Shown here one piece after another: positions 867 through 21,789 of a stretch of 64,000 nucleotides of DNA. The stretch spans positions 143,427-207,426 of the forward strand of contig JADJWH010000007.1 in NCBI GenBank assembly GCA_016716465.1, in the 5' to 3' direction. The notes under the pieces were generated by a model, which had not been told where the DNA came from, did no database searches, and saw only the letters and a list, made by a program, of their open reading frames with translations. The DNA is from Gammaproteobacteria bacterium. GTDB lineage: Bacteria; Pseudomonadota; Gammaproteobacteria; SZUA-140. The translations under genes and the position numbers were made by a program. Within the stretch, counting starts at the first letter, position 1. The number at the start of each line of letters is the position of its first letter.

Positions 867-1165
867 TTCTAAAGCGTGCGGGTTCGCTTTGTATCGATAA
901 GCGACAAGCCTCCTGCACGGAGGGAGTGCGTGCGGTAAGCCAAGGACTGGGCCAGATTTCTCTTCTGTCGACTCGCTTCCGAGCGGAAGAAGATCTTGAG
1001 CCTGTGGGTCTTCTCGATTGACATCCAGTCTCGTGCCGATCTGGATGCCTGGTTCCGGAACGGAAAGCACCGAATCTTCCCAGGATATCTTTTAATGACG
1101 CCCCGGCCTACTGGCTCATTTGTTGCTTTATTATGTCAAAACACAGCTTGTGACAGGTGGATATT

Positions 1166-1783
1166 ATGCGTGCTGAATGGGTAAGAGAGTCGCGCTACCG
1201 GAGAGTTGGCACATGGACGGTGGTGTTCCTGTGCGTGATGCTGGGTCTGGCAAGCCCCGGATTTACTCAGGAGCGGACGATAGTCGCCGGTGAGCTCAGC
1301 GGAGATTACCTGATCGGTCCGGATGATCTGTTGGACATAAGCGTATGGAAGGAAGATACGCTGCAACGCAAGGTTGTGGTGAGGCCGGATGGAAAGATCT
1401 CATTTCCATTGATAGGCGAGATTCCCGCCGCGGCCCGCCCCGCGGAGGAAATTCAGAAGGAAATAACGCAGCGGTTGAAGAAATATATCCCCGAGCCGGT
1501 AGTGACCGTGGTGGTTGAGAAAGTCGCCTCCTACAAAATATACGTGATTGGTGAAGTGAAGAACTCCGGTCAATACCAGGTGGGTCATTATCTGGACGTC
1601 GTTCAGGCCTTGGCGTTGGCGGGCGGATTGACCGCATATGCCGCCGAAAACAAGATAAGGATATTGCGTCGCGAGAATGGCGTCGAGATCGCCATTCCGT
1701 TCGAGTACGCCAAAGTAAAATCAGGGACCGATCTCAAGCAGAACATCATCCTGAGGCGTGGTGATGTGGTTGTTGTTCCCTGA
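1166..1783 (+). CDS. Polysaccharide export protein, Wza/EpsE-like (Poly_export + SLBB)
   Basis: Signal peptide (VVFLCVMLGLASPGF). Motifs typical of Wza N-terminal and SLBB domains (Y.IGPDDLL.ISVW, VRPDG.ISFPLIGEI, G.Y.V.HYLDVVQALALAGG). SD-like aggtgg lies 5 nt upstream of the ATG at 1166. Confidence 0.8.
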   Translation: MRAEWVRESRYRRVGTWTVVFLCVMLGLASPGFTQERTIVAGELSGDYLIGPDDLLDISVWKEDTLQRKVVVRPDGKISFPLIGEIPAAARPAEEIQKEITQRLKKYIPEPVVTVVVEKVASYKIYVIGEVKNSGQYQVGHYLDVVQALALAGGLTAYAAENKIRILRRENGVEIAIPFEYAKVKSGTDLKQNIILRRGDVVVVP

Positions 1784-1878
1784 TGCCGAATCGTATCTCA
1801 TGCGCGGGGGCGGCCTTGGCCATCTGAGTGGGGCTTATTCACGTGCCATCGGGTAGAAGGTTGATGTTTGGGGAGCGC

Positions 1879-3105: not shown

Positions 3106-3189
3106 TGGAAATTAATGTTGTAGAATGGGCGGCACCTGGGCGGATTCTGGCTCGAGTATGCCCTAGTCCGTGTTTGGAGTAGTGTAATT

Positions 3190-4878: not shown

Positions 4879-4954
4879 TCGAGACCATCATGATGGGAAA
4901 TTATTCTGTAAAATCATATGATTGTCAGCCCGGCATCCTGGCTTGCGTGGGTGG

Positions 4955-5755
4955 ATGATGTTCATGGACCGGATTACCAAGGCGGTTGAACGAACGCGGC
5001 AGGAAAAGGAAACGGCCCTCCAGCCAGGCGATGTCCTCATTGGCAATACACAGGACGCGAGCGAGATTTCCCGTATCGAGGTTTCGCAGGAGCTATTGCG
5101 CCAGAACCGTATTTTCCTAGGGAGTGAGGCTGGTGATTATGCCCATGCCTATAAAGTCCTGCGGACGCGCGTATGGCATCAGATGCGCACCAACGGCTGG
5201 CATAGCCTTGGAGTGACCAGTGCCAACCCCGGGGAAGGCAAAACGCTGACGGCAACCAATCTGGCAATAAGTCTGGCCAGGATGGAAATCGGCCGCAAGG
5301 TGGTCCTGGTCGATCTCGATATGCGGAGACCCAGTGTTCACAGGTACCTGGGGTTTCGTCCCGAATACGGGATCAGTGATTTCCTGCTCTCCGGTATGTC
5401 CCTCGGCAAGATACTAGTCGACATCGGAATCGAGAGATTCGCGGTATTGCCGGGTTGCGCCTCGTTTGCAAATTCATCCGAGATCCTGTCCTCGGGCAGG
5501 ATGGTGCAGCTGATGAATGAGATAAAGCGGTATTTCCCCTCGCGCGTGGTGATCTTTGACCTGCCCCCCATCCTCGCGGCGGACGATGTACTGGTCGTTG
5601 CTCCCCATATAAACGCCTTTCTGCTCGTGATCGAGGAAGGCAGGAGTCCCGCCAAAGACGTCGGCAAGGCGGCCGAATTGCTCAAGGATTCAAATATAGT
5701 CGGCACCGTGCTCAATAAGACCCCGGAAGCCGTTCAACAGTATTACGGTTACTGA
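4955..5755 (+). CDS. BY-kinase / ParA-MinD-like ATPase domain protein (EpsG-like tyrosine autokinase partner of the chain-length determinant)
   Basis: Walker A (SANPGEGKTLTATNLAIS), Walker A' (VVLVDLDMRRP) and Walker B (VVIFDLPP). In-frame start alternatives at 4922 (TTG), 4955, 4958 and 4964. Confidence 0.8.
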   Translation: MMFMDRITKAVERTRQEKETALQPGDVLIGNTQDASEISRIEVSQELLRQNRIFLGSEAGDYAHAYKVLRTRVWHQMRTNGWHSLGVTSANPGEGKTLTATNLAISLARMEIGRKVVLVDLDMRRPSVHRYLGFRPEYGISDFLLSGMSLGKILVDIGIERFAVLPGCASFANSSEILSSGRMVQLMNEIKRYFPSRVVIFDLPPILAADDVLVVAPHINAFLLVIEEGRSPAKDVGKAAELLKDSNIVGTVLNKTPEAVQQYYGY

Positions 5756-6777: not shown

Positions 6778-7545
6778 ATGAAGGTCGTGATCTTGGCTGG
6801 AGGACTGGGTACCCGTATCAGCGAGGAGACACAGCTGAAGCCAAAGCCCATGGTGGAGATCGGTGGCAAACCGATCCTGTGGCATATCATGAAGATTTAC
6901 TCGAGTCATGGCATCCACGATTTCATCATCTGTTGTGGCTATAAGGGGTACGTGATCAAGGAATATTTCGCCAATTACGTACTGCACTCCTCCGATGTCA
7001 CCTTTGACCTGAAGAATAACCGCATGGAGATGCACCAGAATGGAACGGACCCATGGCGGGTGACCCTCGTGAACACGGGAGACAACTCGGGGACGGGTGG
7101 GCGTCTGCGACGGGTGCGGGCCTACATCGGTGATGAGGATTTTTGTTTCACCTACGGTGACGGTGTCAGTAACGTCGATATCACCCGCTTGATCGCCTTT
7201 CACAAGAGCCGGGGCAGGCTGGCGACCCTGACGACGGTACAACCCCCCCATCGGTTCGGTGCCCTGGATTTCGATCAGGATTCCGTTATCAAGAGTTTTG
7301 AGGAAAAGCCTCATGAAGGCGGATGGATCAATGGTGGATTCTTCGTGCTTTCGCCCAAGGCGATCGACTACATCGAACAGGATGAGGTGATGTGGGAGCG
7401 TGAACCCATGCAGCGCCTGACCCGCGAGGGTAATCTATCGGCCTACCGCCATGAGGGCTTCTGGTATTCGATGGATACCCAGCGCGACAAAAACCGTCTG
7501 GAAGAGCTGTGGAATACCGGCAAGGCTCCATGGAAGATCTGGTAA
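6778..7545 (+). CDS. rfbF: Glucose-1-phosphate cytidylyltransferase
   Basis: N-terminus [34 protein letters not shown] and length 255 aa are characteristic of RfbF/DdhA. Confidence 0.9.
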
Positions 7546-7549
7546 ATTT

Positions 7550-8749
7550 GTGATCAATACGGATTTTCTTGTAATCGGCGGAGGGGTCATTGGGGTCAAT
7601 ATCGCCCGCACCATGAAGCGCCGATATCCCGATTCCCGGGTTGTCGTGCTCGAGAAGGAGCCGGGCTGCGGTTTGCACGCCAGCGGACGCAATAGCGGAG
7701 TCCTGCACGCCGGGTTCTACTATAGCCCTGACAGCCTGAAGGCGCGCTTTACTCGCATGGGTAACATCGCTATGACTGAGTACTGTCGCGACAGAGGCAT
7801 CAGGATCAACGCCTGTGGAAAACTGGTCGTGGCGCGGGACGAGGAGGATCTGCCCCAGATGGACGAGCTCCTGAAAAGAGGGCGGGCCAATGGGGTGCCA
7901 CTGGACGAGCTCTCCGAGTCCGATGCCCGGTCCATTGAACCTCGAGTGAAGACCTGCGGCAGGGCGTTGTATTCCCCCACCACGGCGTCCGTGGACCCAA
8001 CGGAAGTCATGCGCCGGATGGCCGAGGATGCCGCGCAAGAGGGGGTCGAGATACATACGGGGGTCGGCTATCTGAAGGCGGAAAACGGATCCGTCATGAC
8101 GTCCGCGGGCCGCTACGGCGCGGGTTATGTCATCAACGCCGCCGGGCTCTACGCGGATAAGGTCGCGAAAGATTTCGGCTTCTCCCAGCACTACAGCATC
8201 CTGCCCTTCAAGGGGCTATACCTCTATTCGGATGAACCCAGGGGTTCGATTCGCACCAATATCTACCCTGTCCCGGACCTGAGAAACCCATTTCTGGGCG
8301 TCCACTATACGTTGACGGTAAACAACGACGTGAAAATCGGGCCGACCGCCATCCCGGTGCTTTGGCGCGAGCAGTATCAAGGTCTGGAGAATTTCAGTTC
8401 GCGGGAATTTTTCGAGATCGTCTACCGTCAATTGGGGCTGTTCGCGCGCTCTAATTTCGATTTCAAGAAGCTCGCCATGGAGGAGATCAGGAAATATTCT
8501 CGCTCCCGGATGGTCGAACTCGCTTCTGTCCTTGTAGAAGGCGTCGACTCCGGCCGATACAGGCGGTGGGCCAAGCCCGGCATCCGGGCCCAGCTCCTGG
8601 ACCACAGGACAAAAAAACTGGAGATGGACTTCGTGATCGAGGGCGATGCGAAGTCACTGCATGTCCTCAACGCCGTGTCGCCGGCGTTTACCTGTTCCAT
8701 TCCGTTTTCGGAACATGTATGTAACGAGATTGATAGATTATTGCATTGA
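7550..8749 (+). CDS. FAD-dependent oxidoreductase (DAO / L-2-hydroxyglutarate-oxidase-like family)
   Basis: Rossmann FAD motif VIGGGVIGVNIA followed by LEKE.G.G.HASGRNSGV.HAG. The ORF track starts at 7451, but that stretch overlaps rfbF in another frame. GTG 7550 immediately after the rfbF stop is the likely start. Confidence 0.7.
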   Translation: MINTDFLVIGGGVIGVNIARTMKRRYPDSRVVVLEKEPGCGLHASGRNSGVLHAGFYYSPDSLKARFTRMGNIAMTEYCRDRGIRINACGKLVVARDEEDLPQMDELLKRGRANGVPLDELSESDARSIEPRVKTCGRALYSPTTASVDPTEVMRRMAEDAAQEGVEIHTGVGYLKAENGSVMTSAGRYGAGYVINAAGLYADKVAKDFGFSQHYSILPFKGLYLYSDEPRGSIRTNIYPVPDLRNPFLGVHYTLTVNNDVKIGPTAIPVLWREQYQGLENFSSREFFEIVYRQLGLFARSNFDFKKLAMEEIRKYSRSRMVELASVLVEGVDSGRYRRWAKPGIRAQLLDHRTKKLEMDFVIEGDAKSLHVLNAVSPAFTCSIPFSEHVCNEIDRLLH

Positions 8750-8765
8750 GCGGGTTGGAAATAAC

Positions 8766-9809
8766 ATGAATATCTTGATTACCGGAAATATGGGTTACGT
8801 GGGTCCCGTCGTCGTGAAACAGCTCAGATCGAGCTATCCGAAGGCGAGGCTGATTGGACTGGACATGGGCTATTTCGCCCATTGCCTCACGGCGGCGGAT
8901 ACCTTGCCGGAGTGCGACCTCGATGTTCAGTACTTCATGGATGTGCGGGACGTCGGGGTAGAGATGTTGTCCGGGGTCGATGCCATCGTACACCTGGCCG
9001 CGATCTCGAATGATCCCATGGGGAATGCCTTTGAGGAGGTTACCCTGGAGATCAATCACCGGGCCACCGTCGCGCTGGCGGAAAAGGCCAGGAAGGCCGG
9101 TGTCCGGCGCTTCGTTTTTGCTTCCAGCTGCAGCGTCTACGGGTTCGCCGAGGGCGGAGCGAGGGCCGAGGACGCGGAGTTGAATCCGCTGACCGCTTAC
9201 GCGAAATCCAAGGTCTACTCTGAGAAAGACCTGCAAGAGCTTGCCAGCGAGTCATTCATCGTAACCAGCCTGCGCTTTGCCACGGCCTGCGGTATGAGCC
9301 AGAGGCTGAGACTGGACCTCGTCCTGAATGATTTCGTGGCAAACGCGGTCGCGGCGAAGAAGATCGTGATTCTGAGCGACGGCACCCCCTGGCGTCCGCT
9401 GATCACGGTGCAGGATATGGCGCGCGCGATCGACTGGGCCGCGACCCGGCCGGTTGACAATGGCGGCGGTTTCATTGCGCTCAATGTCGGCAGCAATGTC
9501 TGGAACTACCAGGTCAGGGCCCTCGCCGAGGCGGTTGCGCGCGAGATTCCCGGGGTTGAAGTGACCATCAACAAGGATGCCGCCCCCGACAAGCGCTCAT
9601 ATCAGGTCAATTTCGACCTGTTTTCCAGGCTGGCGTCCGCTTATCAGCCCCAGGTTGATCTGCGCGGGGCGATTACGGGGCTGAAGGAAGGTCTGACGGC
9701 AATGCATTTCAAGGATGCCAATTTCAGGCAGTCGTCCTTCATGCGGCTGAAGGTGCTGCAGGAGCACCTCGATCGCGGCAGATTGACCAGGCAGCTGCGC
9801 TGGTCGTGA
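8766..9809 (+). CDS. NAD-dependent epimerase/dehydratase (extended SDR family) acting on a nucleotide sugar
   Basis: ILITGNMGYVGPVVVKQL glycine-rich NAD motif. Catalytic YAKSK (YxxxK). ATG at 8766. Confidence 0.8.
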   Translation: MNILITGNMGYVGPVVVKQLRSSYPKARLIGLDMGYFAHCLTAADTLPECDLDVQYFMDVRDVGVEMLSGVDAIVHLAAISNDPMGNAFEEVTLEINHRATVALAEKARKAGVRRFVFASSCSVYGFAEGGARAEDAELNPLTAYAKSKVYSEKDLQELASESFIVTSLRFATACGMSQRLRLDLVLNDFVANAVAAKKIVILSDGTPWRPLITVQDMARAIDWAATRPVDNGGGFIALNVGSNVWNYQVRALAEAVAREIPGVEVTINKDAAPDKRSYQVNFDLFSRLASAYQPQVDLRGAITGLKEGLTAMHFKDANFRQSSFMRLKVLQEHLDRGRLTRQLRWS

Positions 9810-9832: not shown

Positions 9833-11074
9833 ATGTCTAGCGCAAACTTGTCGTGCCGCTTCTGTGGAGCAGGCCTGCGGCGCACATTCGCCGATCTCGG
9901 CATGTCGCCGGTGGCGAATTCCTATGTCAAACCCGACGCGTTGCATTGCATGGAGCCGTTCTATCCCCTTCATGCCTATGTGTGCGAGTCATGTTTTCTG
10001 GTTCAGCTCGAGGAATTCCAGAGCCCGTCGGAGATCTTCGGCGACTATGCCTATTTTTCCTCCTATTCAGAGAGCTGGCTGAAGCACGCCAGGGATTACT
10101 CGCTGGAGACCATGAAGCGCTTTGGTATTGATGCGAAATGGCAGGTGGTGGAAATCGCGAGCAATGACGGTTACCTGTTGAGGAATTTCAAGGAGGCCGG
10201 CGTCCCGGTGCTGGGTATAGAGCCGGCGGAGAACGTGGCCATGGTCGCGCAGCAGGCGGGCATACCCGCGGTCGTGAAATTCTTTGGCACCCGGACCGCA
10301 TCCGAGCTTGTCGATCAGGGTACCCGCGCGGATCTTCTGATCGGCAACAATGTATTGGCGCACGTCCCTGATCTGAACGATTTCGTCGGCGGGCTCAAGA
10401 TCCTGCTCAGTCCGCGCGGTGTCATCACGATGGAATTCCCGCATCTGCTTCGGCTGATGAAGGAGAATCAGTTCGATACCATTTACCATGAGCATTTTTC
10501 CTATTTCTCTTTCATTACGGTCGAGAAGGTCTTTGCCAAACATGGCCTGACCATTTTTGATGTCAAGGAACTGCCGACTCACGGAGGTTCGCTCAGGATC
10601 TATGCGTGCCATGATGCCGGTTCCGGGCATTTAGTGGGGGAGAGCGTAACTAAACTCAGGGCCGAAGAATTGCGCCAGGGATTTGACCAGCCTGGCACTT
10701 ACAGCAGCTTCAGCGAGCAGGTCAAGGAAACCAAGCGGAAACTTCTGGAATTTTTGATCGAGGCCAAGCGTGACGGTAAATCGGTCGTCGGTTATGGCGC
10801 CCCTGCCAAGGGGAACACGCTGTTGAATTATTGCGGGATCCGTTCCGATTTCATCGATTATACGGTTGACCTCAGCCCGCACAAGCAGGGGCTTTATCTG
10901 CCGGGAACACGCGTGCCGATTCACGCGCCTGACAAGATCAGGGAGACCCGCCCCGACTATGTCCTGATTCTGCCCTGGAATCTGAAGGACGAGATCATGA
11001 AGCAGATGCAGCACATACGCGAGTGGGGTGGAAAATTCGTCGTGCCGATTCCGGAGGTGAAGGTTTATCCATGA
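9833..11074 (+). CDS. SAM-dependent sugar C-methyltransferase family protein (N-terminal Cys4 zinc ribbon + class I methyltransferase + C-terminal C-MT domain)
   Basis: CRFCG..(x28)..CESC zinc ribbon. Methyltransferase motif I VVEIASNDGYLL. C-terminal domain typical of TylC3/NovU-type nucleotide-sugar C-methyltransferases. Confidence 0.7.
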   Translation: MSSANLSCRFCGAGLRRTFADLGMSPVANSYVKPDALHCMEPFYPLHAYVCESCFLVQLEEFQSPSEIFGDYAYFSSYSESWLKHARDYSLETMKRFGIDAKWQVVEIASNDGYLLRNFKEAGVPVLGIEPAENVAMVAQQAGIPAVVKFFGTRTASELVDQGTRADLLIGNNVLAHVPDLNDFVGGLKILLSPRGVITMEFPHLLRLMKENQFDTIYHEHFSYFSFITVEKVFAKHGLTIFDVKELPTHGGSLRIYACHDAGSGHLVGESVTKLRAEELRQGFDQPGTYSSFSEQVKETKRKLLEFLIEAKRDGKSVVGYGAPAKGNTLLNYCGIRSDFIDYTVDLSPHKQGLYLPGTRVPIHAPDKIRETRPDYVLILPWNLKDEIMKQMQHIREWGGKFVVPIPEVKVYP

Positions 11075-11616
11075 TATTCCGTGAGACGGAACTCGCTGGC
11101 GCCTTCATCATCGAGCCGGAGAAGATCGAGGATGACAGAGGATTTTTTGCGCGTAGCTGGTGCCGCAGGGAGTTTGGAGAGCATGGTCTAGAGACCGGCC
11201 TTGAGCAATGCAATATATCGTTCAACAAGATGAAGGGTACTCTTCGGGGGATGCATTATCAGATAGCCCCCCATGAAGAGGTGAAACTGGTCAGATGTAC
11301 ACGCGGGTCGATTTTCGATGTGATAATCGATCTGCGGCCTTCGTCCTCTACCTATGGGCGCCATTTCGGGCTTGTGCTTTCGGAGGATGAGAGAAACATG
11401 CTGTATATACCGGGTGGATTCGCGCACGGTTTTCAGACGCTGGTGGATTCGACGGAAGTGTTTTATCAGATGACCGAGTCATACCATCCGGAATCGGCGC
11501 GCGGCGTGCGATGGGATGATGCGGGATTTGATATCGAATGGCCACCTGCGGCGCCACGGTTGATTTCCGAGCGCGACAGAACCTGGCCTGACTTTACAGG
11601 TCATTCAGGGCGTTGA
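11071..11616 (+). CDS. Cupin-fold sugar nucleotide 3,5-epimerase (RmlC family)
   Basis: Motifs DDRGFF, RGMHYQ, KLVRC..G.IFDV.IDLR, YIP.GFAHGF. The ATGA start/stop overlap with the upstream gene suggests translational coupling. Confidence 0.8.
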   Translation: MIFRETELAGAFIIEPEKIEDDRGFFARSWCRREFGEHGLETGLEQCNISFNKMKGTLRGMHYQIAPHEEVKLVRCTRGSIFDVIIDLRPSSSTYGRHFGLVLSEDERNMLYIPGGFAHGFQTLVDSTEVFYQMTESYHPESARGVRWDDAGFDIEWPPAAPRLISERDRTWPDFTGHSGR

Positions 11617-11639
11617 TACAAAGCGAGAGTTCTATCACG

Positions 11640-12479
11640 ATGGCTAAGGAACAATCCGATAATATTCCCGTTCTGATCATCAAGCCGGACAGCGGCTGGA
11701 AGATGATCGACCTCGGCGAGATCATCAGGTACCGCGACCTGGCGTATAACCTGGTGTGGCGCGATATCACGGTTCAGCATGCCCAGACCGTCCTCGGGTT
11801 CATTTGGGCGATCATAACGCCGCTGGTCCAGATACTTATCTTCTCGATAATCTTCGGCAAGGTGGCCAAGATCAGCACGGACGGGATACCGTATACGCTG
11901 TTTACGACCGTTGCGATCATCCCGTGGACATATATGTCCACGGTCATGCTTCAGTCCAGTCAAAGCCTGATTTCGAACCATAACATGCTGGGTAAGATTT
12001 ACTTCCCGCGTCTGCTCTATCCGTTAACACCGGTCATTTCGAAAATGTTGAATTTCGGGATATCGCTGTTGCTACTGTTGGCGATCATGGTGTACTACAA
12101 GGTCGCGCCCACCTGGCAGTTGCTCTATTTGCCCCTATTCATCCTGATGATGATGATGGTTCCGGCGGGTATCGGCATGTGGATGTCCGCGATGGCGATA
12201 CGTTACCGCGACATAAAATTCATCATGCACTATGTTGTCCAGATGCTCATGTACAGCGCTCCGATCGTATATTCGGCGGCATCGATCCCGGAGAATTACC
12301 GGTTTGTATATTCATTGAATCCCATTGTGGGAGTGATCGAGGGGTATAGAGCCTGTCTCCTCGGCGCCGATATGCCCTGGCAATTCATACTGCCCGGCAT
12401 GTTCACGGCCGTTCTACTGTTCGTTGGGGGCGCCTTTTACTTCAAGCGTATCGAGCGGATATTTGTCGATGTTATGTAA
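11640..12479 (+). CDS. wzm: ABC-2 type polysaccharide export permease
   Basis: Six predicted TM helices, about 280 aa, ABC-2 signature region, directly upstream of the ATPase. Confidence 0.8.
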   Translation: MAKEQSDNIPVLIIKPDSGWKMIDLGEIIRYRDLAYNLVWRDITVQHAQTVLGFIWAIITPLVQILIFSIIFGKVAKISTDGIPYTLFTTVAIIPWTYMSTVMLQSSQSLISNHNMLGKIYFPRLLYPLTPVISKMLNFGISLLLLLAIMVYYKVAPTWQLLYLPLFILMMMMVPAGIGMWMSAMAIRYRDIKFIMHYVVQMLMYSAPIVYSAASIPENYRFVYSLNPIVGVIEGYRACLLGADMPWQFILPGMFTAVLLFVGGAFYFKRIERIFVDVM

Positions 12480-12509
12480 TGTATTCCGCTGCAGCAGAGT
12501 TGACACATC

Positions 12510-13871
12510 ATGCCTATGAACTCAGAAGAGATCGCTATCAGGGTCGAGAAAGTCGCCAAGCGGTTCCGTCTTGGCCTGGAAGACGCCATGCACGATACCT
12601 TCGGGGCGGCCATGCTCGATTTCATCAAAAGCCCCCTCAAGAACTATCGATACTATCGTTCGCTTCATAAATTCGACGACTCCGCCGGCCCGGACGATCC
12701 GTCGAGCGAGCCGTCGGATATCCTGTGGGCGCTCAGAAGCGTTTCATTCGAGGTCAAACGCGGGGAGGTCCTGGGGATAATCGGCACCAACGGCGCTGGC
12801 AAATCCACCCTGCTCAAAATCCTGTCGCGAATCACCCCGCCCACACGCGGCTCGATCGAAATCAGAGGCCGGGTATCCAGCCTGCTCGAGGTCGGCACCG
12901 GTTTCCATAATGAGCTGACGGGCAGGGAAAATATCTATCTCAATGGCACCGTTCTGGGGATGAGAAAGAAGGAAATTGACCGGAAATTCGATGAAATCGT
13001 CGAGTTCTCCGGCGTCGAGCGTTTCCTTGATACTCCGGTGAAGCGCTATTCCAGCGGCATGCGCGTCCGCCTGGCTTTTTCGGTGGCAGCCCATCTGGAG
13101 CCCGAGATCCTGATCATTGATGAGGTGCTGGCGGTGGGTGACGCGGCATTTCAGAAGAAATGCATGAACAAGATGCAGGATGTCGGCGAAGGCGGCCGCA
13201 CGGTTCTCTTCGTCTCCCACAGCATGCCCGCGATCACCCGATTGTGCCATCGAGCGATACTGCTGAATCAGGGTACCGTGCTGAAGGATGGTTTGACGCA
13301 TGACGTGGTGAGCGCCTATCTGGGATCTGGCCAGGGATCGCCATCACACAAACAATGGGACGATCCGGGCACGGCACCCGCAGGTAAAGTGGCGCGGTTG
13401 CTTGCCGTGCGAGCCCTGGATGCCGACCGCAAAATATCGAGCGCGATGAAGATTACTCAGCCGATCGCGATCGAGATTGAATTTGAGGTGATCGAGCCGG
13501 GATATATCCTGATGCCACATTTTCATGTCTTCAATGACGAAGGCGTGCGCCTGTTCGCGGCCTTGGACCAGGATCCGCAGTGGCGCGGAAAACAGCGCCC
13601 GAAAGGCCGCTATATTTGCCGTGGCTGGATTCCGGCGAACCTGCTGTCTGAGGGCTTGCTGTATGTGTCTCCCGCGCTAACGACACTGCAACCGGATATA
13701 CCGCAATTCATTGCCCGGGACGCCATCTCGTTCCAGGTAATGGACAGCCGGCATGAAGGCGCGGAGTCGGCGCGAGGGGACTATGCGAGGAATATCAAAG
13801 GGGTCATCAGACCGATGTTGAGCTGGGAGTCCGAAATCGTGGAGATACCAGGGCGGCGCTCAACCGCTTGA
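12510..13871 (+). CDS. wzt: ABC transporter ATP-binding protein with C-terminal polysaccharide-terminus-binding domain
   Basis: Walker A GTNGAGKST, signature YSSGMRVRL, Walker B ILIIDEV. About 190-aa C-terminal extension consistent with the Wzt_C beta-sandwich. Confidence 0.85.
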   Translation: MPMNSEEIAIRVEKVAKRFRLGLEDAMHDTFGAAMLDFIKSPLKNYRYYRSLHKFDDSAGPDDPSSEPSDILWALRSVSFEVKRGEVLGIIGTNGAGKSTLLKILSRITPPTRGSIEIRGRVSSLLEVGTGFHNELTGRENIYLNGTVLGMRKKEIDRKFDEIVEFSGVERFLDTPVKRYSSGMRVRLAFSVAAHLEPEILIIDEVLAVGDAAFQKKCMNKMQDVGEGGRTVLFVSHSMPAITRLCHRAILLNQGTVLKDGLTHDVVSAYLGSGQGSPSHKQWDDPGTAPAGKVARLLAVRALDADRKISSAMKITQPIAIEIEFEVIEPGYILMPHFHVFNDEGVRLFAALDQDPQWRGKQRPKGRYICRGWIPANLLSEGLLYVSPALTTLQPDIPQFIARDAISFQVMDSRHEGAESARGDYARNIKGVIRPMLSWESEIVEIPGRRSTA

Positions 13872-13928
13872 GTGTGCCGGCCGCGGGGCCGCGCTGCCGG
13901 CAGAATCGGCAATGCAGGATCGAATGAT

Positions 13929-15233
13929 ATGGACGATATGGACTTCTCTGCCAATGTGCCCTCCGTGGGCGATGACATGTACGGACTTGTCCGGCAATTG
14001 TTCCCGATTTGTCGCAGCATCACCGGTGACGGCGTGCGGGAGACACTCGCTCTCCTGAGAGAGCGGCTTTCGATCGAGATCCACGAAGTCGAAACCGGGA
14101 CGCAGGTATTCGACTGGACGATTCCGAAGGAATGGAACATCCGCGATGCCTACATCATGGATTCCCGCGGCCGGAAGGTGATCGACTTCCGGGACAACAA
14201 TCTGCATGTGTTGAATTACAGTACGCCGATACGTGCGCGGGTATCGAATGAGGAATTGAAGAAACACCTGTACACCCTTCCCGACCGGCCGGACTGGATT
14301 CCCTACCGCACCTCGTATTACAGCGAAAACTGGGGGTTTTGCGTCAGCCATAATCAATTCCTGAGCCTGACGGAACCGGAATACGAGGTTGTGATCGATT
14401 CCGATCTGAAGGCCGGTCATATGACCTATGGCGAGTACTACAAGCCGGGAGAGTCCACGGAGGAGGTACTGTTCTCCTGCCATGTGTGCCATCCCTCGCT
14501 CTGTAACGACAATCTTTCCGGGATAGCTCTCGCCGCGCAACTTGCACGCTGGCTGTCCGGTAGAACTACGAGATACTCCTACCGATTTCTCTTTATCCCC
14601 GGTACGATAGGGTCGATTGCCTGGCTGAGCCTGAACGAAGCCATGGTCGGGCGCATCAAGCACGGACTGGTGGTGGTCTGCGTCGGCGACGACGGTGACT
14701 TCACGTATAAGAAAAGCCGCCAGGCGGATAGCGAGATCGATCGAATCGTTTTGAATATACTGAAAAATTCGGGTAAGCCCTACAAGGTGATTGATTTCTA
14801 TCCCTATGGATATGACGAGCGTCAGTACTGTTCGCCCGGGTTCAATCTCGCCGTCGGCAGTCTGTCCAGAACGACCCATGGCGAATACCCTGAATACCAT
14901 ACCTCGGCGGATAATCTGTCATTTGTCAAACCAGTCAATCTGGCCGATTCCTTTGACAAGTATTGCCAGATCGTCGATGCGCTGGAAAACAATTACACCT
15001 ACCGCAATCTCAGTCCGAAATGTGAGCCCCAACTCGGGAAGAGAGGTCTATACGGCGGTATCGGGGCGGAGGACAAAAAGCCCGTGAAGACCATGACCCT
15101 CTTATGGGTCCTCAACCTGTCTGACGGCAAACACAGTCTGCTGGATATCTCGGAACGATCCGGCGTGCCGTTCGATGAGGTCGCCGCCGCTGCCGCTGCG
15201 CTGGCGGGTGCTGGGCTGTTGGCCAAGGTATGA
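13929..15233 (+). CDS. DUF4910 / M28-aminopeptidase-like domain protein associated with polysaccharide loci
   Basis: M28-like metal-ligand motifs (CHVCHPS, YHTSADN). Architecture recalls the DUF2172/DUF4910 proteins found beside wzm/wzt. In-frame GTG 13872 is an alternative start. Confidence 0.45.
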   Translation: MDDMDFSANVPSVGDDMYGLVRQLFPICRSITGDGVRETLALLRERLSIEIHEVETGTQVFDWTIPKEWNIRDAYIMDSRGRKVIDFRDNNLHVLNYSTPIRARVSNEELKKHLYTLPDRPDWIPYRTSYYSENWGFCVSHNQFLSLTEPEYEVVIDSDLKAGHMTYGEYYKPGESTEEVLFSCHVCHPSLCNDNLSGIALAAQLARWLSGRTTRYSYRFLFIPGTIGSIAWLSLNEAMVGRIKHGLVVVCVGDDGDFTYKKSRQADSEIDRIVLNILKNSGKPYKVIDFYPYGYDERQYCSPGFNLAVGSLSRTTHGEYPEYHTSADNLSFVKPVNLADSFDKYCQIVDALENNYTYRNLSPKCEPQLGKRGLYGGIGAEDKKPVKTMTLLWVLNLSDGKHSLLDISERSGVPFDEVAAAAAALAGAGLLAKV

Positions 15234-15967
15234 TGGGCCCGCTTTCGGGAAAGACCGCGGTCATCACCGGTGCCACCGGCGGCATCGGCAGGAGTGTTGC
15301 GCTGGCGCTGGCTCGGGAAGGCGTCAATCTGTGCCTGCTCGGTCGCGAGCGGGCTCGATGTGAGGGTCTCCTCGCGCAAGTGGCGACCGGGCATCCTGGG
15401 CTGCGTACCGCCTTTCAGGCGGTGGATCTTGCGGACGTTACCGGTGTGCGGCGTGCCTGCGAGAGCCTTCTGCGCGATCAGCCTGCTATCGATCTGTTGG
15501 TCCACTGCGCCGGCCTGATCGTTCCGGCCGAGTATGCGAGCGCGAAGACTGAGGATTTCGATGCGCAGTATTTCATCAACGTTCGGGCGCCATTCCTGCT
15601 GACCCAGGGGCTGCTCTCCGCGATCCGTGCCCGGAAGGGGCAGGTGGTATTCGTGAACTCAAGTGCGGCCCAGCAGAAGGCGAGGGGCGGTATGGCAGCC
15701 TACGCCGCCAGTAAATATGCCTTGACGGCGCTGGCCGACAGCCTGCGGGATGAGGTCAATGCGGATGGGGTGCGGGTCATCAGCGTCTACCCCGGCCGTA
15801 CCGCGACGGCCATGCAGGAGCAACTCCATGAGCGGGAGGGCAAGCCTTACCGGTCGAATGTTCTGCTGCAACCGGACGATGTCGCGGAGGCGATTCTTCA
15901 CGCCCTTATGGCCCCCCTCACCGCCGAGATCACCGATATCTCGATTCGCCCCTTTCAGAAGGGTTGA
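15230..15967 (+). CDS. Classical short-chain dehydrogenase/reductase
   Basis: TGATGGIG cofactor motif. NSSAA...YAASK catalytic tetrad region. ATGA overlap with the upstream gene. Confidence 0.8.
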   Translation: MMGPLSGKTAVITGATGGIGRSVALALAREGVNLCLLGRERARCEGLLAQVATGHPGLRTAFQAVDLADVTGVRRACESLLRDQPAIDLLVHCAGLIVPAEYASAKTEDFDAQYFINVRAPFLLTQGLLSAIRARKGQVVFVNSSAAQQKARGGMAAYAASKYALTALADSLRDEVNADGVRVISVYPGRTATAMQEQLHEREGKPYRSNVLLQPDDVAEAILHALMAPLTAEITDISIRPFQKG

Positions 15968-16060
15968 ATGGCGCGATGGATGGAGTGGCCGCATCCTCTC
16001 TTGGCGCGTCCGGATCCGGCGCCGGTGTGACAGGGGGCCAGGTACCGGCGGAGGTGCGGC

Positions 16061-16870
16061 GTGAAGCCCAGTAATCTGCTCGGGATTCTCGGCCATGCCG
16101 CGCCGGATTTTTTCATCATCGGGGTCCAGAAAGGCGGCACCACTTCGCTCTACAATTATCTCGCCCGTCATCCAGCGGTGCTTCCGGCGGTGGAAAAGGA
16201 GATTCACTATTTCAGTGAAAATTTCTATAGAGGCGAAGCGTGGTACAGCAAGCGCTTTCCGACCCGATACCACAAGCTGCGCCGCATGCTGGAGTTGCAT
16301 ACGCGTATCCTGACCGGAGAGGCAACCCCGTATTACATCTTCCATCCCCATGCCGCCCGACGGATCAGGGCGCGTCATCCACGCGCCAGGATCATCCTCA
16401 TGCTGCGCAATCCCGTCGATCGCGCCTATTCGCACTATCGTTATCACGTCAAGCTGGGTGTCGAGTCGCTGAGTTTCGAGGAGGCGATAGCCGCGGAGCC
16501 ACAGCGGCTGGCCGGGGAAATGGAGCGGATGATGGCCGATGAGTACTACTCCAGCGAAGCGTGCAAACTGTTTTCTTACCTGAGGCGCGGGATCTATGTC
16601 GACCAGATCCGGCGCTGGCGCGAATATTTTCCTCGCGAGCAGATGCTGGTCCTGAAAAGCGAGGATTTTTTTGCCAACCCGGCGGAGTCTTATCTGCAGG
16701 TCACCCGGTTTCTGGGCCTGGAGCACCATGATCTTAGCGCTTATGACACGTTCAATGCGGGCGCTGAATCGGCCCTGCGGTCTGACACACGGCAGGGGCT
16801 CGTGGAATATTTCCGGGCGAGTAACGAGCAGCTCTACGACTATCTGGGAGTCGATTTCGGCTGGAATTGA
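16061..16870 (+). CDS. Sulfotransferase (Sulfotransfer_1, heparan-sulfate-sulfotransferase-like PAPS-binding motifs)
   Basis: 5'-PSB loop IIGVQKGGTTSL, very similar to the animal HS sulfotransferase motif IIGV(R/K)KGGTRAL. 3'-PB motif RNPVDRAYSHY. GTG start. Confidence 0.8.
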   Translation: MKPSNLLGILGHAAPDFFIIGVQKGGTTSLYNYLARHPAVLPAVEKEIHYFSENFYRGEAWYSKRFPTRYHKLRRMLELHTRILTGEATPYYIFHPHAARRIRARHPRARIILMLRNPVDRAYSHYRYHVKLGVESLSFEEAIAAEPQRLAGEMERMMADEYYSSEACKLFSYLRRGIYVDQIRRWREYFPREQMLVLKSEDFFANPAESYLQVTRFLGLEHHDLSAYDTFNAGAESALRSDTRQGLVEYFRASNEQLYDYLGVDFGWN

Positions 16871-20694: not shown

Positions 20695-20847
20695 CTCAAC
20701 TGGATTCAAATCCCCGGAATTTTGCCCGATACTCTCTGCATAGACACAGCCTCAAGAGCGCGTCAATTCCGTGGACAGCACCGGGTTTGGGTCGCGATAG
20801 CTTCGTTGGGGCAGGATCATTTTCGATAATTTAGCGGGACAATCGTG

Positions 20848-21789
20848 ATGTCGACCAATGAGCAGCGGCTGATCTTTCTGGGCGGGGCCCCCCGGTCGGG
20901 AACAACCTTGTTACAGAACATCCTCGATATGCATCCGGATATCCTGGGTGGTCCGGAGTTTCTGCATTTGCCGGATATCCTGCAACTTCGCGGCAAGCTG
21001 CGCGACTCCGTTGCCCGCGGATGGATCGATCTGATCTGCTCAGCGGAGGAGGTCGATGAACGCATGCGTAATCTCATTGGCGGATTTCTGTTGACCTTCG
21101 CCGACAGGCACGGCGCCAAATTGCTCAGCGAGAAGACACCCGAGAATGTCCTGGTCTTTCCCAAATTGGTGGAGTTGTTTCCGGGTTCGAAGTTCATTCA
21201 CATCGTGCGCGATCCACGCGCAACCGTGGCTTCTTTGCTGGAAGTTGGGAAAAAGGCCCGGCGTAAAGGTGAAACCCCGGCGTTGTTCACACGTGACGCA
21301 CAGTCCGCGATCAGGCATGTGCGACGCTGCCTGGATTCCGGCTTTTCGGCCTCCCGTACCGCGCCGGACAAGGTGTATACGCTGGTTTATGAACGATTGA
21401 TCCGGGACCCGGAGGCCGAGGGACGCCAGATCTGCGGTTTCCTCGGTGTGTCATGGGCGCCGGAGATGTTACGGCCCGGCGAGAAGCGCCACATGGGTGA
21501 GAGCGCCATTACCGTCAACTCAAAAGAGATCTGGTATGACGCCAAAACGTACAACTCCAATCCTCAACCGGACAGCCTGGAGAAATGGCGCGAAACGCTG
21601 GCGGCGCACGAAAAGCTGATGATTGCGCGCGCGTTCTCCGATTCAGAGGATTTGAGCCGGCTGGGGTACGATTTCACGCTCAGCGATATGGGGACGATGG
21701 ATCGCGCGCGCGGCGCCGTGGTAACGTGGCTGCGGGGGCTCCGTCGCCGGCTCGGCGGCGGGCTGCGCCGGCTTGCCGGAGATAAATGA
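20848..21789 (+). CDS. Sulfotransferase family protein (Sulfotransfer_3-like)
   Basis: 5'-PSB P-loop LGGAPRSGTTLL near the N-terminus. IVRDPRATVAS 3'-PB-like motif. Confidence 0.8.
   Translation: MSTNEQRLIFLGGAPRSGTTLLQNILDMHPDILGGPEFLHLPDILQLRGKLRDSVARGWIDLICSAEEVDERMRNLIGGFLLTFADRHGAKLLSEKTPENVLVFPKLVELFPGSKFIHIVRDPRATVASLLEVGKKARRKGETPALFTRDAQSAIRHVRRCLDSGFSASRTAPDKVYTLVYERLIRDPEAEGRQICGFLGVSWAPEMLRPGEKRHMGESAITVNSKEIWYDAKTYNSNPQPDSLEKWRETLAAHEKLMIARAFSDSEDLSRLGYDFTLSDMGTMDRARGAVVTWLRGLRRRLGGGLRRLAGDK

What the first reader, a model, noticed from the sequence alone, without database searches (positions are those of the whole stretch)
11640..16870. ABC-transporter export module alongside Wza/Wzc/Wzy-type machinery, with a sulfotransferase as candidate chain terminator
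The locus contains a Wzm/Wzt ABC exporter (11640-13871) as well as Wza/Wzc-type components (1166-5755) and a Wzy-like protein (50664-52016). The Wzt has an extended C-terminal domain of about 190 aa of the kind that recognises a capped chain terminus. In ABC-dependent O-polysaccharide systems the non-reducing end is capped, for example by the methyl-phosphate cap added by WbdD. Here the genes immediately downstream are a DUF4910/M28-like protein, an SDR and a heparan-sulfate-type sulfotransferase (16061-16870). This raises the possibility that a sulfate group serves as the chain-terminating, export-licensing cap, which has not been described. Alternatively the window encodes two distinct polymers.
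Basis: inference. Interest (0 to 1): 0.5.

Follow-up and report, generated by a model that had tools for sequence, protein, structure and literature searches.

The report
Sugar-chain exporter beside a sulfotransferase
An uncultured gammaproteobacterium carries a standard "finish the chain, then export it" polysaccharide transporter inside a large locus for sulfated surface sugars, and the neighbouring sulfotransferase more likely decorates the chain than acts as a new "sulfate stop signal", although that idea is not excluded.

Summary
Wzm (11613/11640-12479), Wzt (12510-13871), DUF4910, an SDR and a heparan-sulfate-3-OST-like sulfotransferase (ST1, 16061-16870) lie co-directionally. The Wzt C-terminus (about 180 aa) is a genuine Wzt carbohydrate-binding domain (CBD): the AF2 model has pLDDT 85 and the top 17 PDB fold hits are all Wzt CBDs.

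The sulfate-cap interpretation gets only weak support.
- For: no methyltransferase other than the sugar C-methyltransferase, no kinase and no Kdo-transferase domain was detected in the 64 kb. ST1-like genes sit near related wzt genes in at least 4 other lineages. In one (L015) they occupy the slot abutting wzt that a methyltransferase holds in about 50 of 80 related loci.
- Against: DUF4910 and the SDR travel with a CDP-3-C-methyl-6-deoxyhexose pathway. The window has at least 5 sulfotransferases plus a sulfatase. Of 80 metagenomic loci with ST1 relatives, none has this CBD and only 3 have a Wzt-type ATPase. Sulfotransferase-linked CBDs are not one clade and share no specific pocket residue. 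The nearest CBD relatives and L030 have methyltransferases and no sulfotransferase; L027 has both.

Best reading: an ABC-transporter-dependent glycan that is probably sulfated, next to a separate Wzy/OPX/PCP-type pathway.

The parts
6778..7545 (+). Glucose-1-phosphate cytidylyltransferase, the first step of a CDP-sugar pathway.
   Evidence: NCBIfam TIGR02623, 442 bits against a cut-off of 300. Homologues lie next to wzm/wzt in 16 related loci.
7451..8749 (+). FAD-dependent oxidoreductase (DAO, L-2-hydroxyglutarate-oxidase-like) inside the sugar operon. Its role is unknown.
   Evidence: PF01266, E 1.9e-51. NF008726, 327 bits. Conserved in L002, L014, L016, L027 and L030.
8646..9809 (+). NAD-dependent dehydratase/epimerase. 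Inferred to be the CDP-hexose 4,6-dehydratase step.
   Evidence: PF01370, E 4.9e-40. 61-67% identical homologues sit in the same modules of related loci.
9833..11074 (+). Sugar-nucleotide C-methyltransferase of the TylC3 type.
   Evidence: PF08421 + PF08484, E 2e-69. Present in 8 related genome loci plus L161 and L164.
11023..11616 (+). RmlC-like 3,5-epimerase.
   Evidence: PF00908, E 3.9e-64. TIGR01221, 183 bits against a cut-off of 156.
11613..12479 (+). Wzm, the ABC-2 permease. The probable ATG start is at 11640.
   Evidence: PF01061, E 1.3e-13. A homologue is adjacent to wzt in 63-67 of 80 related loci.
12510..13322 (+). Wzt nucleotide-binding domain with its N-terminal extension.
   Evidence: phmmer against A. 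aeolicus Wzt 6oih/7k2t, E 1.7e-68 over residues 70-271.
13323..13871 (+). Wzt C-terminal carbohydrate-binding domain (Wzt_C jelly-roll fold).
   Evidence: AF2 model pLDDT 84.7. Foldseek top 17 hits are all Wzt CBDs; the best is 6o14, E 1.7e-6, TM 0.72. The family has more than 3600 members and about two thirds of the 120 listed carry PF14524.
13872..15233 (+). DUF4910/DUF2172/wHTH peptidase-like protein (CA_C2195 family). Assigned to the modified-sugar pathway, not to capping.
   Evidence: PF16254, E 5e-115. Always found with the C-methyltransferase (8 of 8 loci). A role in modified-carbohydrate biosynthesis was proposed in PMC4000134.
15230..15967 (+). SDR oxidoreductase. Inferred to be the ketoreductase of the sugar pathway.
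   Evidence: PF00106, E 4.7e-42. In L030 it sits between DUF4910 and wzm.
16061..16870 (+). ST1, a PAPS-dependent carbohydrate O-sulfotransferase of the heparan-sulfate 3-OST type.
   Evidence: PF00685, E 7.7e-20. 3rnl 1e-29 and 3-OST-3A1 8e-21, with the 5'-PSB loop, catalytic E/H and 3'-PB motif aligned. Conserved at 75-80% identity in L001 and L002.
20845..21789 (+). ST2, a second sulfotransferase.
   Evidence: PF13469, E 3e-33. Conserved in L001 and L002. A 48% identical homologue lies beside a CDP-sugar module in L111.
33927..34916 (+). GT2 glycosyltransferase from the cluster that typically flanks this wzm/wzt family. It is the probable glycosyltransferase of the ABC pathway.
   Evidence: PF00535, E 1e-25. 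It falls in the same blastp cluster as GT2 genes found in 55 of the 81 regions compared (80 loci plus the window), at a median of about 0.8 kb from wzt.
34955..35899 (-). ST3, a third sulfotransferase.
   Evidence: PF13469, E 3.5e-12. ST3-like genes pair with ST1-like genes and a Bac_transf PGT in about 9 metagenomic loci.
38180..38917 (-). Hexapeptide-repeat acyltransferase of a type recurrent near this wzt family.
   Evidence: PF00132. Homologues at 33-53% identity occur in 9 Wzt loci.
1157..5755 (+). OPX (Poly_export), outer-membrane beta-barrel, PCP and BY-kinase. This is export machinery of the XrtA/PEP-CTERM-like EPS type.
   Evidence: Pfam and NCBIfam hits. All NCBIfam XrtA-type hits are below their curated cut-offs.

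Best explanation
Positions 6.8-16.9 kb form one co-directional gene block for an ABC-transporter-dependent glycan.

- Seven genes are inferred to make a CDP-activated 3-C-methyl-6-deoxyhexose: cytidylyltransferase, FAD oxidoreductase, dehydratase, C-methyltransferase, RmlC-like epimerase, DUF4910 and SDR.
- The polymer is assembled on a lipid carrier at the cytoplasmic face. A GT2 (33927-34916) and an acyltransferase (38180-38917) of the kinds that normally accompany this transporter family probably contribute.
- The finished chain is exported by Wzm/Wzt. Wzt's C-terminal jelly-roll domain binds the non-reducing terminus. This step is inferred from the fold and from the Aquifex, O9a and O12 paradigms.
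- ST1 is an active-looking cytoplasmic O-sulfotransferase of the 3-OST type. It most probably sulfates the deoxyhexose-containing chain before export, as a decoration. It is one of at least five sulfotransferases in a sulfated-glycan supercluster that also encodes secreted sulfatase/CBM6 proteins.
- The chemical nature of the cap read by the CBD is unresolved.
- The PGT, OPX, PCP and kinase genes and the low-GC GT4/Wzy-like block most probably make a second polymer.
For: Shown:
- Gene identities.
- CBD fold.
- ST1 catalytic motifs.
- DUF4910 co-occurs with the C-methyltransferase in 8 of 8 loci. The module order NTP-transferase, DAO, dehydratase, C-methyltransferase, epimerase, DUF4910, SDR (L030) or SDR-type epimerase (L027), then wzm and wzt recurs in those two loci.
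- The nearest CBD relatives (50-53% identity) sit in a block of wzm, wzt, NTP-transferase, dehydratase, C-methyltransferase and epimerase.
- ST1 relatives link to the same sugar module without Wzt (L082, L111), or to ST3-like genes plus a Bac_transf PGT.
- None of 80 loci with ST1 relatives contains this CBD and 3 have a Wzt-type ATPase.
- The window holds at least 5 sulfotransferases and a sulfatase.
- The GT2 and the hexapeptide acyltransferase belong to clusters typical of this wzt family.
- GC content drops to 0.42-0.47 at 46-60 kb.

Inferred: the sugar's identity, the operon structure (no excess of terminator-like sites), and decoration rather than capping.
Against: - A CBD-bearing Wzt is expected to need a cap (PMC9445017). 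No methyltransferase other than the sugar C-methyltransferase, no kinase and no Kdo-transferase domain was detected in the ORFs of at least 100 aa scanned across the 64 kb. The decoration reading therefore leaves the cap unexplained.
- In L015 two sulfotransferases abut wzt exactly where methyltransferases sit in about 50 other loci.
- The window-clade CBD is the least acidic of 79 and has clade-specific basic residues (K293, K314, R414, H415, R427, K430).
- No chemistry is available for this uncultured organism.
Confidence: 0.55

Rival explanations
1. ST1 adds sulfate to the non-reducing terminal sugar. The sulfate stops elongation and is the ligand of the Wzt CBD that licenses export.
For: - The CBD is genuine.
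- No conventional terminator was found in the window.
- ST1 lies in the same co-directional block 2.2 kb from wzt and is conserved in L001 and L002.
- ST1-family genes lie within 5 kb of related wzt genes in L004, L007, L011, L010, L015 and L027. In L015 they occupy the slot abutting wzt that methyltransferases hold in about 50 of 80 loci.
- Loci with the same C-methyl-sugar module carry a methyltransferase (L030, L161, L164), both enzymes (L027) or a sulfotransferase only (the window clade).
- The window-clade CBD is the least acidic.
- A sulfotransferase-domain ORF also follows wzt in Aeromonas salmonicida, where its role is unexplained (PMC4483657).
Against: - Most ST1 relatives are not near Wzm/Wzt. 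Of 80 loci, none has this CBD and 3 have a Wzt-type ATPase.
- Sulfotransferase-linked CBDs are polyphyletic. They share clades with loci that have neither enzyme on long contigs (L014, L016, L006, L013, L012).
- The basic residue at putative pocket position 347 is shared with loci lacking a sulfotransferase (L006, L013, L018, L012).
- L027 has a methyltransferase abutting wzt in addition to the sulfotransferase.
- In L004, L007 and L011 the sulfotransferase sits inside the sugar-nucleotide operon.
- 3-OST-type enzymes act on internal chain residues (established knowledge).
- ST1 has no coiled-coil or ruler domain like WbdD.
- Four other sulfotransferases in the window make general sulfation the simpler reading.
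Confidence: 0.12
2. The cap is a distinct terminal residue, not sulfate. The CDP-derived 3-C-methyl-6-deoxyhexose itself, possibly O-modified, would be added once at the chain end, as Kdo is in Klebsiella O12. The CBD reads that sugar. ST1 decorates this polymer or the other one.
For: - CBD similarity tracks the C-methyl-sugar module rather than the sulfotransferase. The closest CBDs (P0018, P0023, P0039 and L018, at 48-53% identity) all sit beside an NTP-transferase and dehydratase, with or without the C-methyltransferase.
- Unique-sugar caps are an established class (PMC9445017).
- The sugar module is interleaved with wzm/wzt in the window.
Against: - The same module could just as well supply the repeating backbone, as deoxyhexose homopolymers are typical ABC-pathway products.
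- Relatives with the module also carry O-methyltransferases next to wzt, which suggests that a small-group cap is still needed.
- No dedicated terminating glycosyltransferase was identified.
Confidence: 0.2
3. There is a single polymer. Wzm/Wzt works together with the upstream OPX and PCP/kinase, in a capsule-like ABC plus OPX route, so the window makes one sulfated exopolysaccharide rather than two.
For: OPX genes lie within 10 kb of CBD-type wzm/wzt in L007, L011, L012, L014, L019, L022 and L023 as well as in the window and L002. In L012 the order is wzm, OPX, barrel, PCP. In L016 the XrtA-type ATPase and the kinase abut wzt.
Against: - The window also has a Bac_transf PGT, seven GT4 genes and a polytopic Wzy-like protein in a compositionally distinct block. 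This is what a separate Wzy-type pathway needs.
- PCP-2a/BY-kinase pairs are characteristic of Wzy-dependent systems (established knowledge).
- Most loci of this Wzt family (all the acidobacterial ones) have no OPX nearby.
Confidence: 0.13

Closest known systems
Aquifex aeolicus WzmWzt O-antigen ABC transporter with a CBD that reads a 3-O-methyl cap (PDB 6oih, 7k2t, 8dku, 8dky; PMC9445017)
   Same: - Wzm permease plus Wzt ATPase.
- The nucleotide-binding domain matches at E 1e-68.
- The C-terminal jelly-roll CBD is the best structural match (6o14, TM 0.72).
- A deoxyhexose pathway is encoded next to the transporter.
   Different: - CBD sequence identity is only about 17%, and Pfam Wzt_C is below threshold.
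- No O-methyltransferase was found in the window.
- A sulfotransferase sits in the gene block.
- The locus context is a sulfated-EPS supercluster with OPX/PCP, not a classical O-antigen cluster.
E. coli O9a/O8 WbdD-Wzt system (methyl-phosphate or methyl cap; PDB 2r5o; PMC3482155)
   Same: The logic of a CBD-bearing Wzt that requires a terminal modification. The CBD fold matches (2r5o, E 2e-6).
   Different: No homologue of WbdD (kinase/methyltransferase with a coiled-coil ruler) is present. ST1 is a single-domain, 269-aa sulfotransferase.
Klebsiella O12 / Raoultella terrigena Wzt with the WbbB Kdo cap (PDB 5hno/5hnp)
   Same: The CBD fold matches (E about 2e-5). It is a precedent for a unique sugar acting as cap.
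   Different: No domain resembling a GT99 Kdo transferase was detected by Pfam in the window's ORFs.
Sulfated bacterial polysaccharide loci, e.g. Synechocystis synechan xss (PMC8205485) and Cobetia marina sulfated CPS (PMC11766843)
   Same: Multiple PAPS-type sulfotransferases are embedded among glycosyltransferases and OPX/PCP export genes. Sulfation is a decoration made in the cytoplasm.
   Different: Synechan is Wzx/Wzy-dependent. Here one sulfotransferase lies in a block with a CBD-type Wzm/Wzt. The organism is an uncultured gammaproteobacterium.
Aeromonas salmonicida A450 wb(salmo) O-antigen cluster (PMC4483657)
   Same: It uses an ABC-2 pathway, and a sulfotransferase-domain ORF immediately follows wzt (438 aa).
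   Different: That ORF is 216 aa and is followed by a WbbB-type enzyme. No sulfate was seen in the published O-polysaccharide structure. Its homology to ST1 was not tested here.

Membership tests
Cap-dependent Wzm/Wzt O-polysaccharide ABC exporter | An ABC-2 permease (Wzm) is encoded next to the ATPase. | tested here: met
   PF01061, E 1.3e-13, at 11613-12479, 30 bp upstream of wzt.
Cap-dependent Wzm/Wzt O-polysaccharide ABC exporter | The Wzt nucleotide-binding domain is homologous to characterised Wzt proteins. | tested here: met
   phmmer E 1.7e-68 to A. aeolicus Wzt (6oih/7k2t) over residues 70-271.
Cap-dependent Wzm/Wzt O-polysaccharide ABC exporter | A C-terminal carbohydrate-binding domain with the Wzt_C jelly-roll fold. 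| tested here: met
   AF2 pLDDT 84.7. The 17 best Foldseek PDB hits are all Wzt CBDs. By sequence, PF14524 reaches only 15.5 bits against a cut-off of 30.4, but about two thirds of the 120 listed family members carry PF14524.
Cap-dependent Wzm/Wzt O-polysaccharide ABC exporter | A chain-terminating, cap-adding enzyme in the locus (methyltransferase, kinase/methyltransferase such as WbdD, or a GT99 Kdo transferase). | tested here: not met
   Pfam scans of all ORFs of at least 100 aa in the 64 kb found only the sugar-nucleotide C-methyltransferase. There was no other methyltransferase, kinase or Kdo-transferase-like domain. About 50 of 80 related loci do have a methyltransferase abutting wzt. 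The enzyme could lie outside the window, or be ST1.
Cap-dependent Wzm/Wzt O-polysaccharide ABC exporter | Export depends on binding of the capped terminus by the CBD. | not testable with these tools
   This requires genetics or binding assays.
PAPS-dependent carbohydrate sulfotransferase (heparan-sulfate 3-OST/NDST-like) | 5'-phosphosulfate-binding loop, 3'-phosphate-binding motif and catalytic Glu/His. | tested here: met
   The alignment to 3-OST-3A1 (1t8t) pairs GVQKGGTTSL with GVKKGGTRAL, KEIHYF with AEPHFF, and LRNPVDRAYSHY with VRDPVTRAISDY. PF00685, E 7.7e-20.
Chain-terminating (capping) enzyme of an ABC-dependent glycan | Consistent genomic coupling of the enzyme family to CBD-type wzt. 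| tested here: not met
   Of 80 metagenomic loci with ST1 relatives, none has this CBD and 3 have a Wzt-type ATPase. Thirty of the loci are at least 8 kb long. In the other direction, ST1-family genes occur in 9 of 80 Wzt loci.
Chain-terminating (capping) enzyme of an ABC-dependent glycan | The CBD co-varies with the enzyme, as a clade or in pocket residues specific to sulfotransferase-linked transporters. | tested here: not met
   The CBD tree groups by methyltransferase type, but sulfotransferase-linked CBDs are scattered. No basic residue is shared only by them, and R/K347 also occurs in loci without a sulfotransferase.
Chain-terminating (capping) enzyme of an ABC-dependent glycan | The modification is confined to the non-reducing terminus and controls chain length. 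| not testable with these tools
   This needs MS/NMR of the polymer and mutants.
XrtA/PEP-CTERM-type or Wzy-dependent EPS system | Initiating PGT, OPX, PCP and BY-kinase. | tested here: met
   Bac_transf at 15-866, Poly_export at 1157-1783, Wzz/GNVR at 3190-4878 and a tyrosine kinase at 4922-5755.
XrtA/PEP-CTERM-type or Wzy-dependent EPS system | An exosortase (XrtA), or a Wzx flippase with a Wzy polymerase. | tested here: inconclusive
   No exosortase or MOP flippase was found in the window. ORF 50664-52016 is polytopic (about 10-11 transmembrane segments) but matches no family. The NCBIfam XrtA-associated hits (TIGR03007, TIGR03015, TIGR03018) are all below their curated cut-offs.

The most novel reading that the evidence does not exclude
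In this gammaproteobacterial clade an O-sulfate added by the 3-OST-like ST1 has replaced the O-methyl group of relatives as the non-reducing-end cap. It would terminate polymerisation and be read by a divergent, less acidic Wzt CBD. That would make it a fourth chemical class of export-licensing cap, after methyl, (methyl)phosphate and Kdo. The same might hold in Woeseia-like L015, where two sulfotransferases abut wzt.
Probability: 0.12. Interest if true: 0.7.

Novelty: new member of a known kind. Interest (0 to 1): 0.35.

Why it matters
If the conservative reading holds, this is an ordinary CBD-type Wzm/Wzt pathway. It sits in an unusually sulfotransferase-rich exopolysaccharide locus of an uncultured, probably sediment-dwelling gammaproteobacterium. 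That makes it a useful catalogue entry for sulfated bacterial glycans, which are still sparsely documented outside cyanobacteria, but it is not a new mechanism.

The comparative data give two reusable leads:
- In about 50 acidobacterial loci a methyltransferase abuts wzt and the CBD phylogeny splits by methyltransferase family. This marks candidate specificity positions at Wzt residues 339-354 and 401-404.
- A minority of related transporters carry sulfotransferases in or near that slot.

If sulfate does prove to be a cap in any of them, it would extend the known chemical repertoire of the chain-termination and export checkpoint. It would also give a handle for engineering sulfated glycans of defined length.

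Tried and rejected
1. Pfam Wzt_C on the C-terminus gave only E 0.018. I rejected 'no CBD' after the structure prediction and fold search.
2. I tested DUF4910 and the SDR as cap machinery and rejected this. Both travel with the C-methyl-sugar pathway.
3. I looked for a sulfate-specific CBD clade or signature and found none in the tree, the column comparison, the net charge or the specificity positions. Only the window clade itself is less acidic.
4. A residue-level mapping of the Aquifex methyl pocket (L300, T346, A348, W362) onto this CBD failed.
5. I checked whether genes upstream of wzt in L008, L010 and L012 encode PAPS synthesis. They do not. L010:2895-4736 has no PDB match, and two others are YceI-like and TANGO2-like. 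Only a CitMHS/Na-sulfate-symporter-like transporter abuts wzt.
6. A generic regex for the SAM-binding motif and extra jackhmmer seeds, intended to find missed methyltransferases, were uninformative. Methyltransferase absence in the 'neither' loci is therefore only as good as four seed families plus Pfam on selected genes.
7. The promoter and terminator scan of 6-22.5 kb showed nothing above shuffled expectation.
8. My own longest-ORF caller lost ST1 to a 414-aa shadow ORF on the opposite strand. I corrected this with six-frame searches.
9. Literature searches found no report of a sulfate cap for Wzt. The library does not cover subscription journals.

Full report
**1. What is in the sequence**

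The flagged interval is part of a co-directional, tightly spaced run of genes from about 6.8 to 21.8 kb. Pfam and NCBIfam give the following assignments.

| Coordinates | Assignment | Evidence |
|---|---|---|
| 6778-7545 | glucose-1-phosphate cytidylyltransferase | TIGR02623, 442 bits, above cut-off |
| 7451-8749 | FAD oxidoreductase | |
| 8646-9809 | NAD-dependent dehydratase/epimerase | |
| 9833-11074 | TylC3-type sugar C-methyltransferase | |
| 11023-11616 | RmlC-like 3,5-epimerase | |
| 12510-13871 | Wzt, 453 aa | |
| 13872-15233 | DUF4910/DUF2172/wHTH protein | |
| 15230-15967 | SDR | |
| 16061-16870 | sulfotransferase ST1 | |

Upstream lie a phosphoglycosyl transferase (PGT, Bac_transf family), an OPX (outer-membrane polysaccharide export protein, Wza type), an outer-membrane barrel, a PCP (polysaccharide co-polymerase, Wzc type), a BY-kinase and an XrtA-type ATPase.

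Downstream the window carries:
- four more sulfotransferases (20845-21789, 34955-35899(-), 38841-39845, 46738-47751);
- a 2376-aa secreted sulfatase/CBM6/GDSL protein;
- several FG-GAP/ASPIC and CBM6 proteins;
- a GT2, a hexapeptide acyltransferase and ten GT4-type glycosyltransferases;
- a polytopic membrane protein (50664-52016) that matches no family.

The 46-60 kb block has a GC content of 0.42-0.47, against about 0.60 elsewhere.

**2. The Wzt C-terminal domain**

- The nucleotide-binding domain matches Aquifex aeolicus Wzt at E 1.7e-68.
- The C-terminal ~180 residues score only 15.5 bits on Pfam Wzt_C, against a cut-off of 30.4.
- A profile search found more than 3600 proteins with this domain. 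About two thirds of the 120 listed carry a precomputed Wzt_C hit.
- An AF2 model built on 108 sequences has pLDDT 84.7 and pTM 0.81 and is a beta-sandwich.
- In Foldseek against the PDB, the 17 best hits are all Wzt carbohydrate-binding domains (CBDs): Aquifex 6o14/8dky/8dku, E. coli O9a 2r5o and the Kdo-cap-binding O12 domain 5hno/5hnp.

According to PMC9445017, the caps known for such transporters are methyl, (methyl)phosphate and Kdo. My literature searches found no sulfate cap.

**3. What the neighbours of this Wzt family are**

A genome scan returned 80 loci with full-length relatives at 49-94% identity, CBD included. They come from Gammaproteobacteria (Thiogranum, Woeseia, Pseudomonadales), Desulfosarcina, Nitrospira, Acidobacteriota and others.

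By tblastn and ORF clustering:
- Wzm accompanies Wzt in 63-67 loci.
- One GT2 cluster occurs in 55 of the 81 regions compared (80 loci plus the window). The window's member is 33927-34916, 20 kb away from wzt.
- A hexapeptide acyltransferase occurs in 9 loci. The window's member is 38180-38917(-).
- DUF4910 occurs in 8 loci, always together with the C-methyltransferase.
- In L030 and L027 the order is NTP-transferase, DAO, dehydratase, C-methyltransferase, epimerase, DUF4910, then an SDR (L030) or an SDR-type epimerase (L027), then wzm and wzt.

DUF4910 and the SDR therefore belong to the sugar-nucleotide pathway. This agrees with the proposal made for the DUF4910 prototype CA_C2195 (PMC4000134). 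In the window, wzm and wzt are simply inserted in the middle of that pathway.

**4. Methyltransferases and sulfotransferases next to wzt**

- In about 50 of the 80 loci, mostly Acidobacteriota, a SAM-dependent methyltransferase abuts the 3' end of wzt. The families are Methyltransf_23, Methyltransf_24, TylF and Methyltransf_11.
- L030 has a 437-aa Methyltransf_11 protein in the same position.
- A neighbour-joining tree of the CBDs splits cleanly by methyltransferase family.
- Positions that discriminate MT23-type from MT24-type CBDs cluster at Wzt residues 339-354 and 401-404. The first stretch aligns roughly with the region of the Aquifex methyl-pocket residue L300. This alignment is low-confidence.
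- An iterative search with ST1 finds sulfotransferases near wzt in the window, L001 and L002 (close relatives), L004, L007, L011, L010, L015 and L027.
- In L015 (Woeseia) two sulfotransferases directly follow wzt (confirmed by Pfam).
- In L004, L007 and L011 the sulfotransferase lies between the cytidylyltransferase and an oxidoreductase of the sugar operon.
- In L027 the sulfotransferase precedes wzm while a methyltransferase abuts wzt.

**5. Tests that weigh against a dedicated sulfate cap**

(a) Reciprocal context. Eighty metagenomic loci encode ST1 relatives at 29-57% identity, and 30 of them are at least 8 kb long.
- None contains this CBD family.
- Three have a Wzt-type ATPase and one has a Wzm.
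- The recurrent partners are instead an ST3-like sulfotransferase plus a Bac_transf PGT, or the CDP-sugar module without a transporter (L111, L082).
- ST1's family is thus a general polysaccharide sulfotransferase family, possibly tied to the deoxyhexose substrate.

(b) CBD phylogeny. Sulfotransferase-linked CBDs are scattered among CBDs from long contigs that show neither a sulfotransferase nor a methyltransferase (L014 and L016 next to L004 and L007; L006, L013 and L018 next to the window clade; L012 next to L010).

(c) Pocket residues.
- No basic residue is shared only by sulfotransferase-linked CBDs.
- R/K at position 347 also occurs in L006, L013, L018 and L012.
- Only the window clade is less acidic, with net charge 0 to -1 against a median of -5 to -6. 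Its clade-specific basic residues fall mostly in a low-confidence loop.

(d) Nearest relatives. The closest CBD relatives outside the clade (P0018, P0023, P0039; 50-53% identity) sit in a block of wzm, wzt, NTP-transferase, dehydratase, C-methyltransferase and epimerase. They have a Methyltransf_21 or Methyltransf_24 gene and no sulfotransferase.

(e) Enzyme type. ST1 aligns with heparan-sulfate 3-O-sulfotransferases and has intact PAPS-binding and catalytic residues. From established knowledge, those enzymes modify internal residues of a chain. ST1 has no extra domain comparable to the WbdD ruler.

(f) Locus context. With five sulfotransferases and a secreted sulfatase in the window, sulfation as a general decoration is the simpler reading.

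**6. Most likely mechanism**

*Shown:* gene identities, the CBD fold, the active-site motifs of ST1 and the gene associations.

*Inferred:*
- The block makes a CDP-activated 3-C-methyl-6-deoxyhexose.
- A lipid-linked glycan containing that sugar is completed in the cytoplasm and sulfated there by ST1, perhaps also by ST2 to ST4.
- It is then exported by Wzm/Wzt after the CBD binds its terminus.
- What the CBD reads remains open. Options are an O-sulfated terminal sugar (about 12%), a distinct terminal sugar such as the C-methyl sugar (about 20%), or a cap made by an enzyme outside the window.
- The PGT, OPX, PCP and kinase genes and the low-GC GT4/Wzy-like block most likely make a second polymer.
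- However, OPX genes recur next to CBD-type wzm/wzt in seven other loci, so coupling of the ABC exporter to an OPX cannot be dismissed.

**7. Comparison with known systems and verdict**

By its permease, nucleotide-binding domain and CBD fold, this is a member of the CBD-type Wzm/Wzt class. The one defining feature not found is a conventional terminator enzyme.

It works like the Aquifex, O9a and O12 systems. It is embedded in a sulfated-polysaccharide locus comparable in logic to synechan (PMC8205485) or Cobetia CPS (PMC11766843).

A sulfotransferase-domain ORF right after wzt has been noted before in Aeromonas salmonicida, where it was left unexplained (PMC4483657).

I rate the finding as a new member of a known kind, with interest 0.35. 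The sulfate-cap hypothesis is testable and not excluded, but it is currently a minority reading.

Noticed in passing
window 19231-19909 and 20005-20683 (inside gene 16894-20694): There is a near-perfect tandem duplication inside the secreted FG-GAP protein: 679 nt at 98.8% identity with an offset of 774 nt. It duplicates a He_PIG/Ig plus CBM6 module. It is either a recent duplication or an assembly collapse or expansion.
   Followed up: partly
window 46000-60000: GC content falls from about 0.60 to 0.42-0.47 across a block holding seven GT4 genes, the polytopic Wzy-like ORF (50664-52016), sulfotransferase ST5, an Asn-synthase-like gene and a sulfotransferase-like ORF (57244-58215(-)). The block was probably acquired separately from the rest of the locus.
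   Followed up: partly
window 22243-29373 (-): This is a 2376-aa multidomain protein with a sulfatase, an SGSH_C domain, three CBM6/35 modules, Ig-like domains and a GDSL esterase. It sits in the middle of a biosynthetic locus that has at least five sulfotransferases. It may remodel or recycle the sulfated polymer outside the cell. An 84% identical homologue is present in L001.
   Followed up: no
L025-L080 (Acidobacteriota), the gene abutting the 3' end of wzt: About 50 loci carry a SAM-dependent methyltransferase (Methyltransf_23, Methyltransf_24 or TylF) within 0-250 bp of wzt. The CBD tree splits by methyltransferase family. Discriminating positions cluster at window Wzt residues 339-354 and 401-404, which makes them candidate cap-specificity determinants.
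   Followed up: partly
L007, L011, L012, L014, L019, L022, L023, L016; window 1157-5755: OPX (Poly_export), PEP-CTERM-type outer-membrane barrel, PCP and kinase genes recur within 10 kb of CBD-type wzm/wzt in unrelated lineages. In L012 the order is wzm, OPX, barrel, PCP. In Nitrospira the order is OPX, OPX, barrel, wzm, wzt. This hints that some CBD-type ABC exporters feed an OPX route rather than LPS ligation.
   Followed up: partly
window 7451-8749: An FAD oxidoreductase scores above the NCBIfam cut-off for L-2-hydroxyglutarate oxidase. It sits inside the CDP-sugar operon and is conserved there in L002, L014, L016, L027 and L030. Its role in a deoxysugar pathway is unexplained.
   Followed up: no
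window 15659-16903 (-): A 414-aa shadow ORF on the opposite strand overlaps the SDR and ST1 genes and is longer than either. A longest-ORF gene caller picks it and loses the real sulfotransferase.
   Followed up: yes
L010 11405-16645: Downstream of wzt the order is an NKWYS (PF10364) protein, a GT4, a heparinase II/III-like protein (728 aa) and then an ST1-like sulfotransferase. This may be a glycosaminoglycan-like sulfated polymer. A CitMHS/Na-sulfate-symporter-like transporter abuts wzt upstream in L008, L010 and L012.
   Followed up: partly
L116-L118, L122-L126, L128, L134: A recurrent metagenomic module pairs an ST3-like sulfotransferase with an ST1-like sulfotransferase and a Bac_transf phosphoglycosyl transferase. 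The window's ST1 and ST3 types therefore travel together in loci that are not ABC-type.
   Followed up: no
window 29567-33801 (-) and 36052-38154 (+): Three paralogous FG-GAP/ASPIC-UnbV (CRTAC1-like) proteins of about 700 aa are interleaved with the glycosyltransferase and sulfotransferase genes. Their function here is unknown.
   Followed up: no
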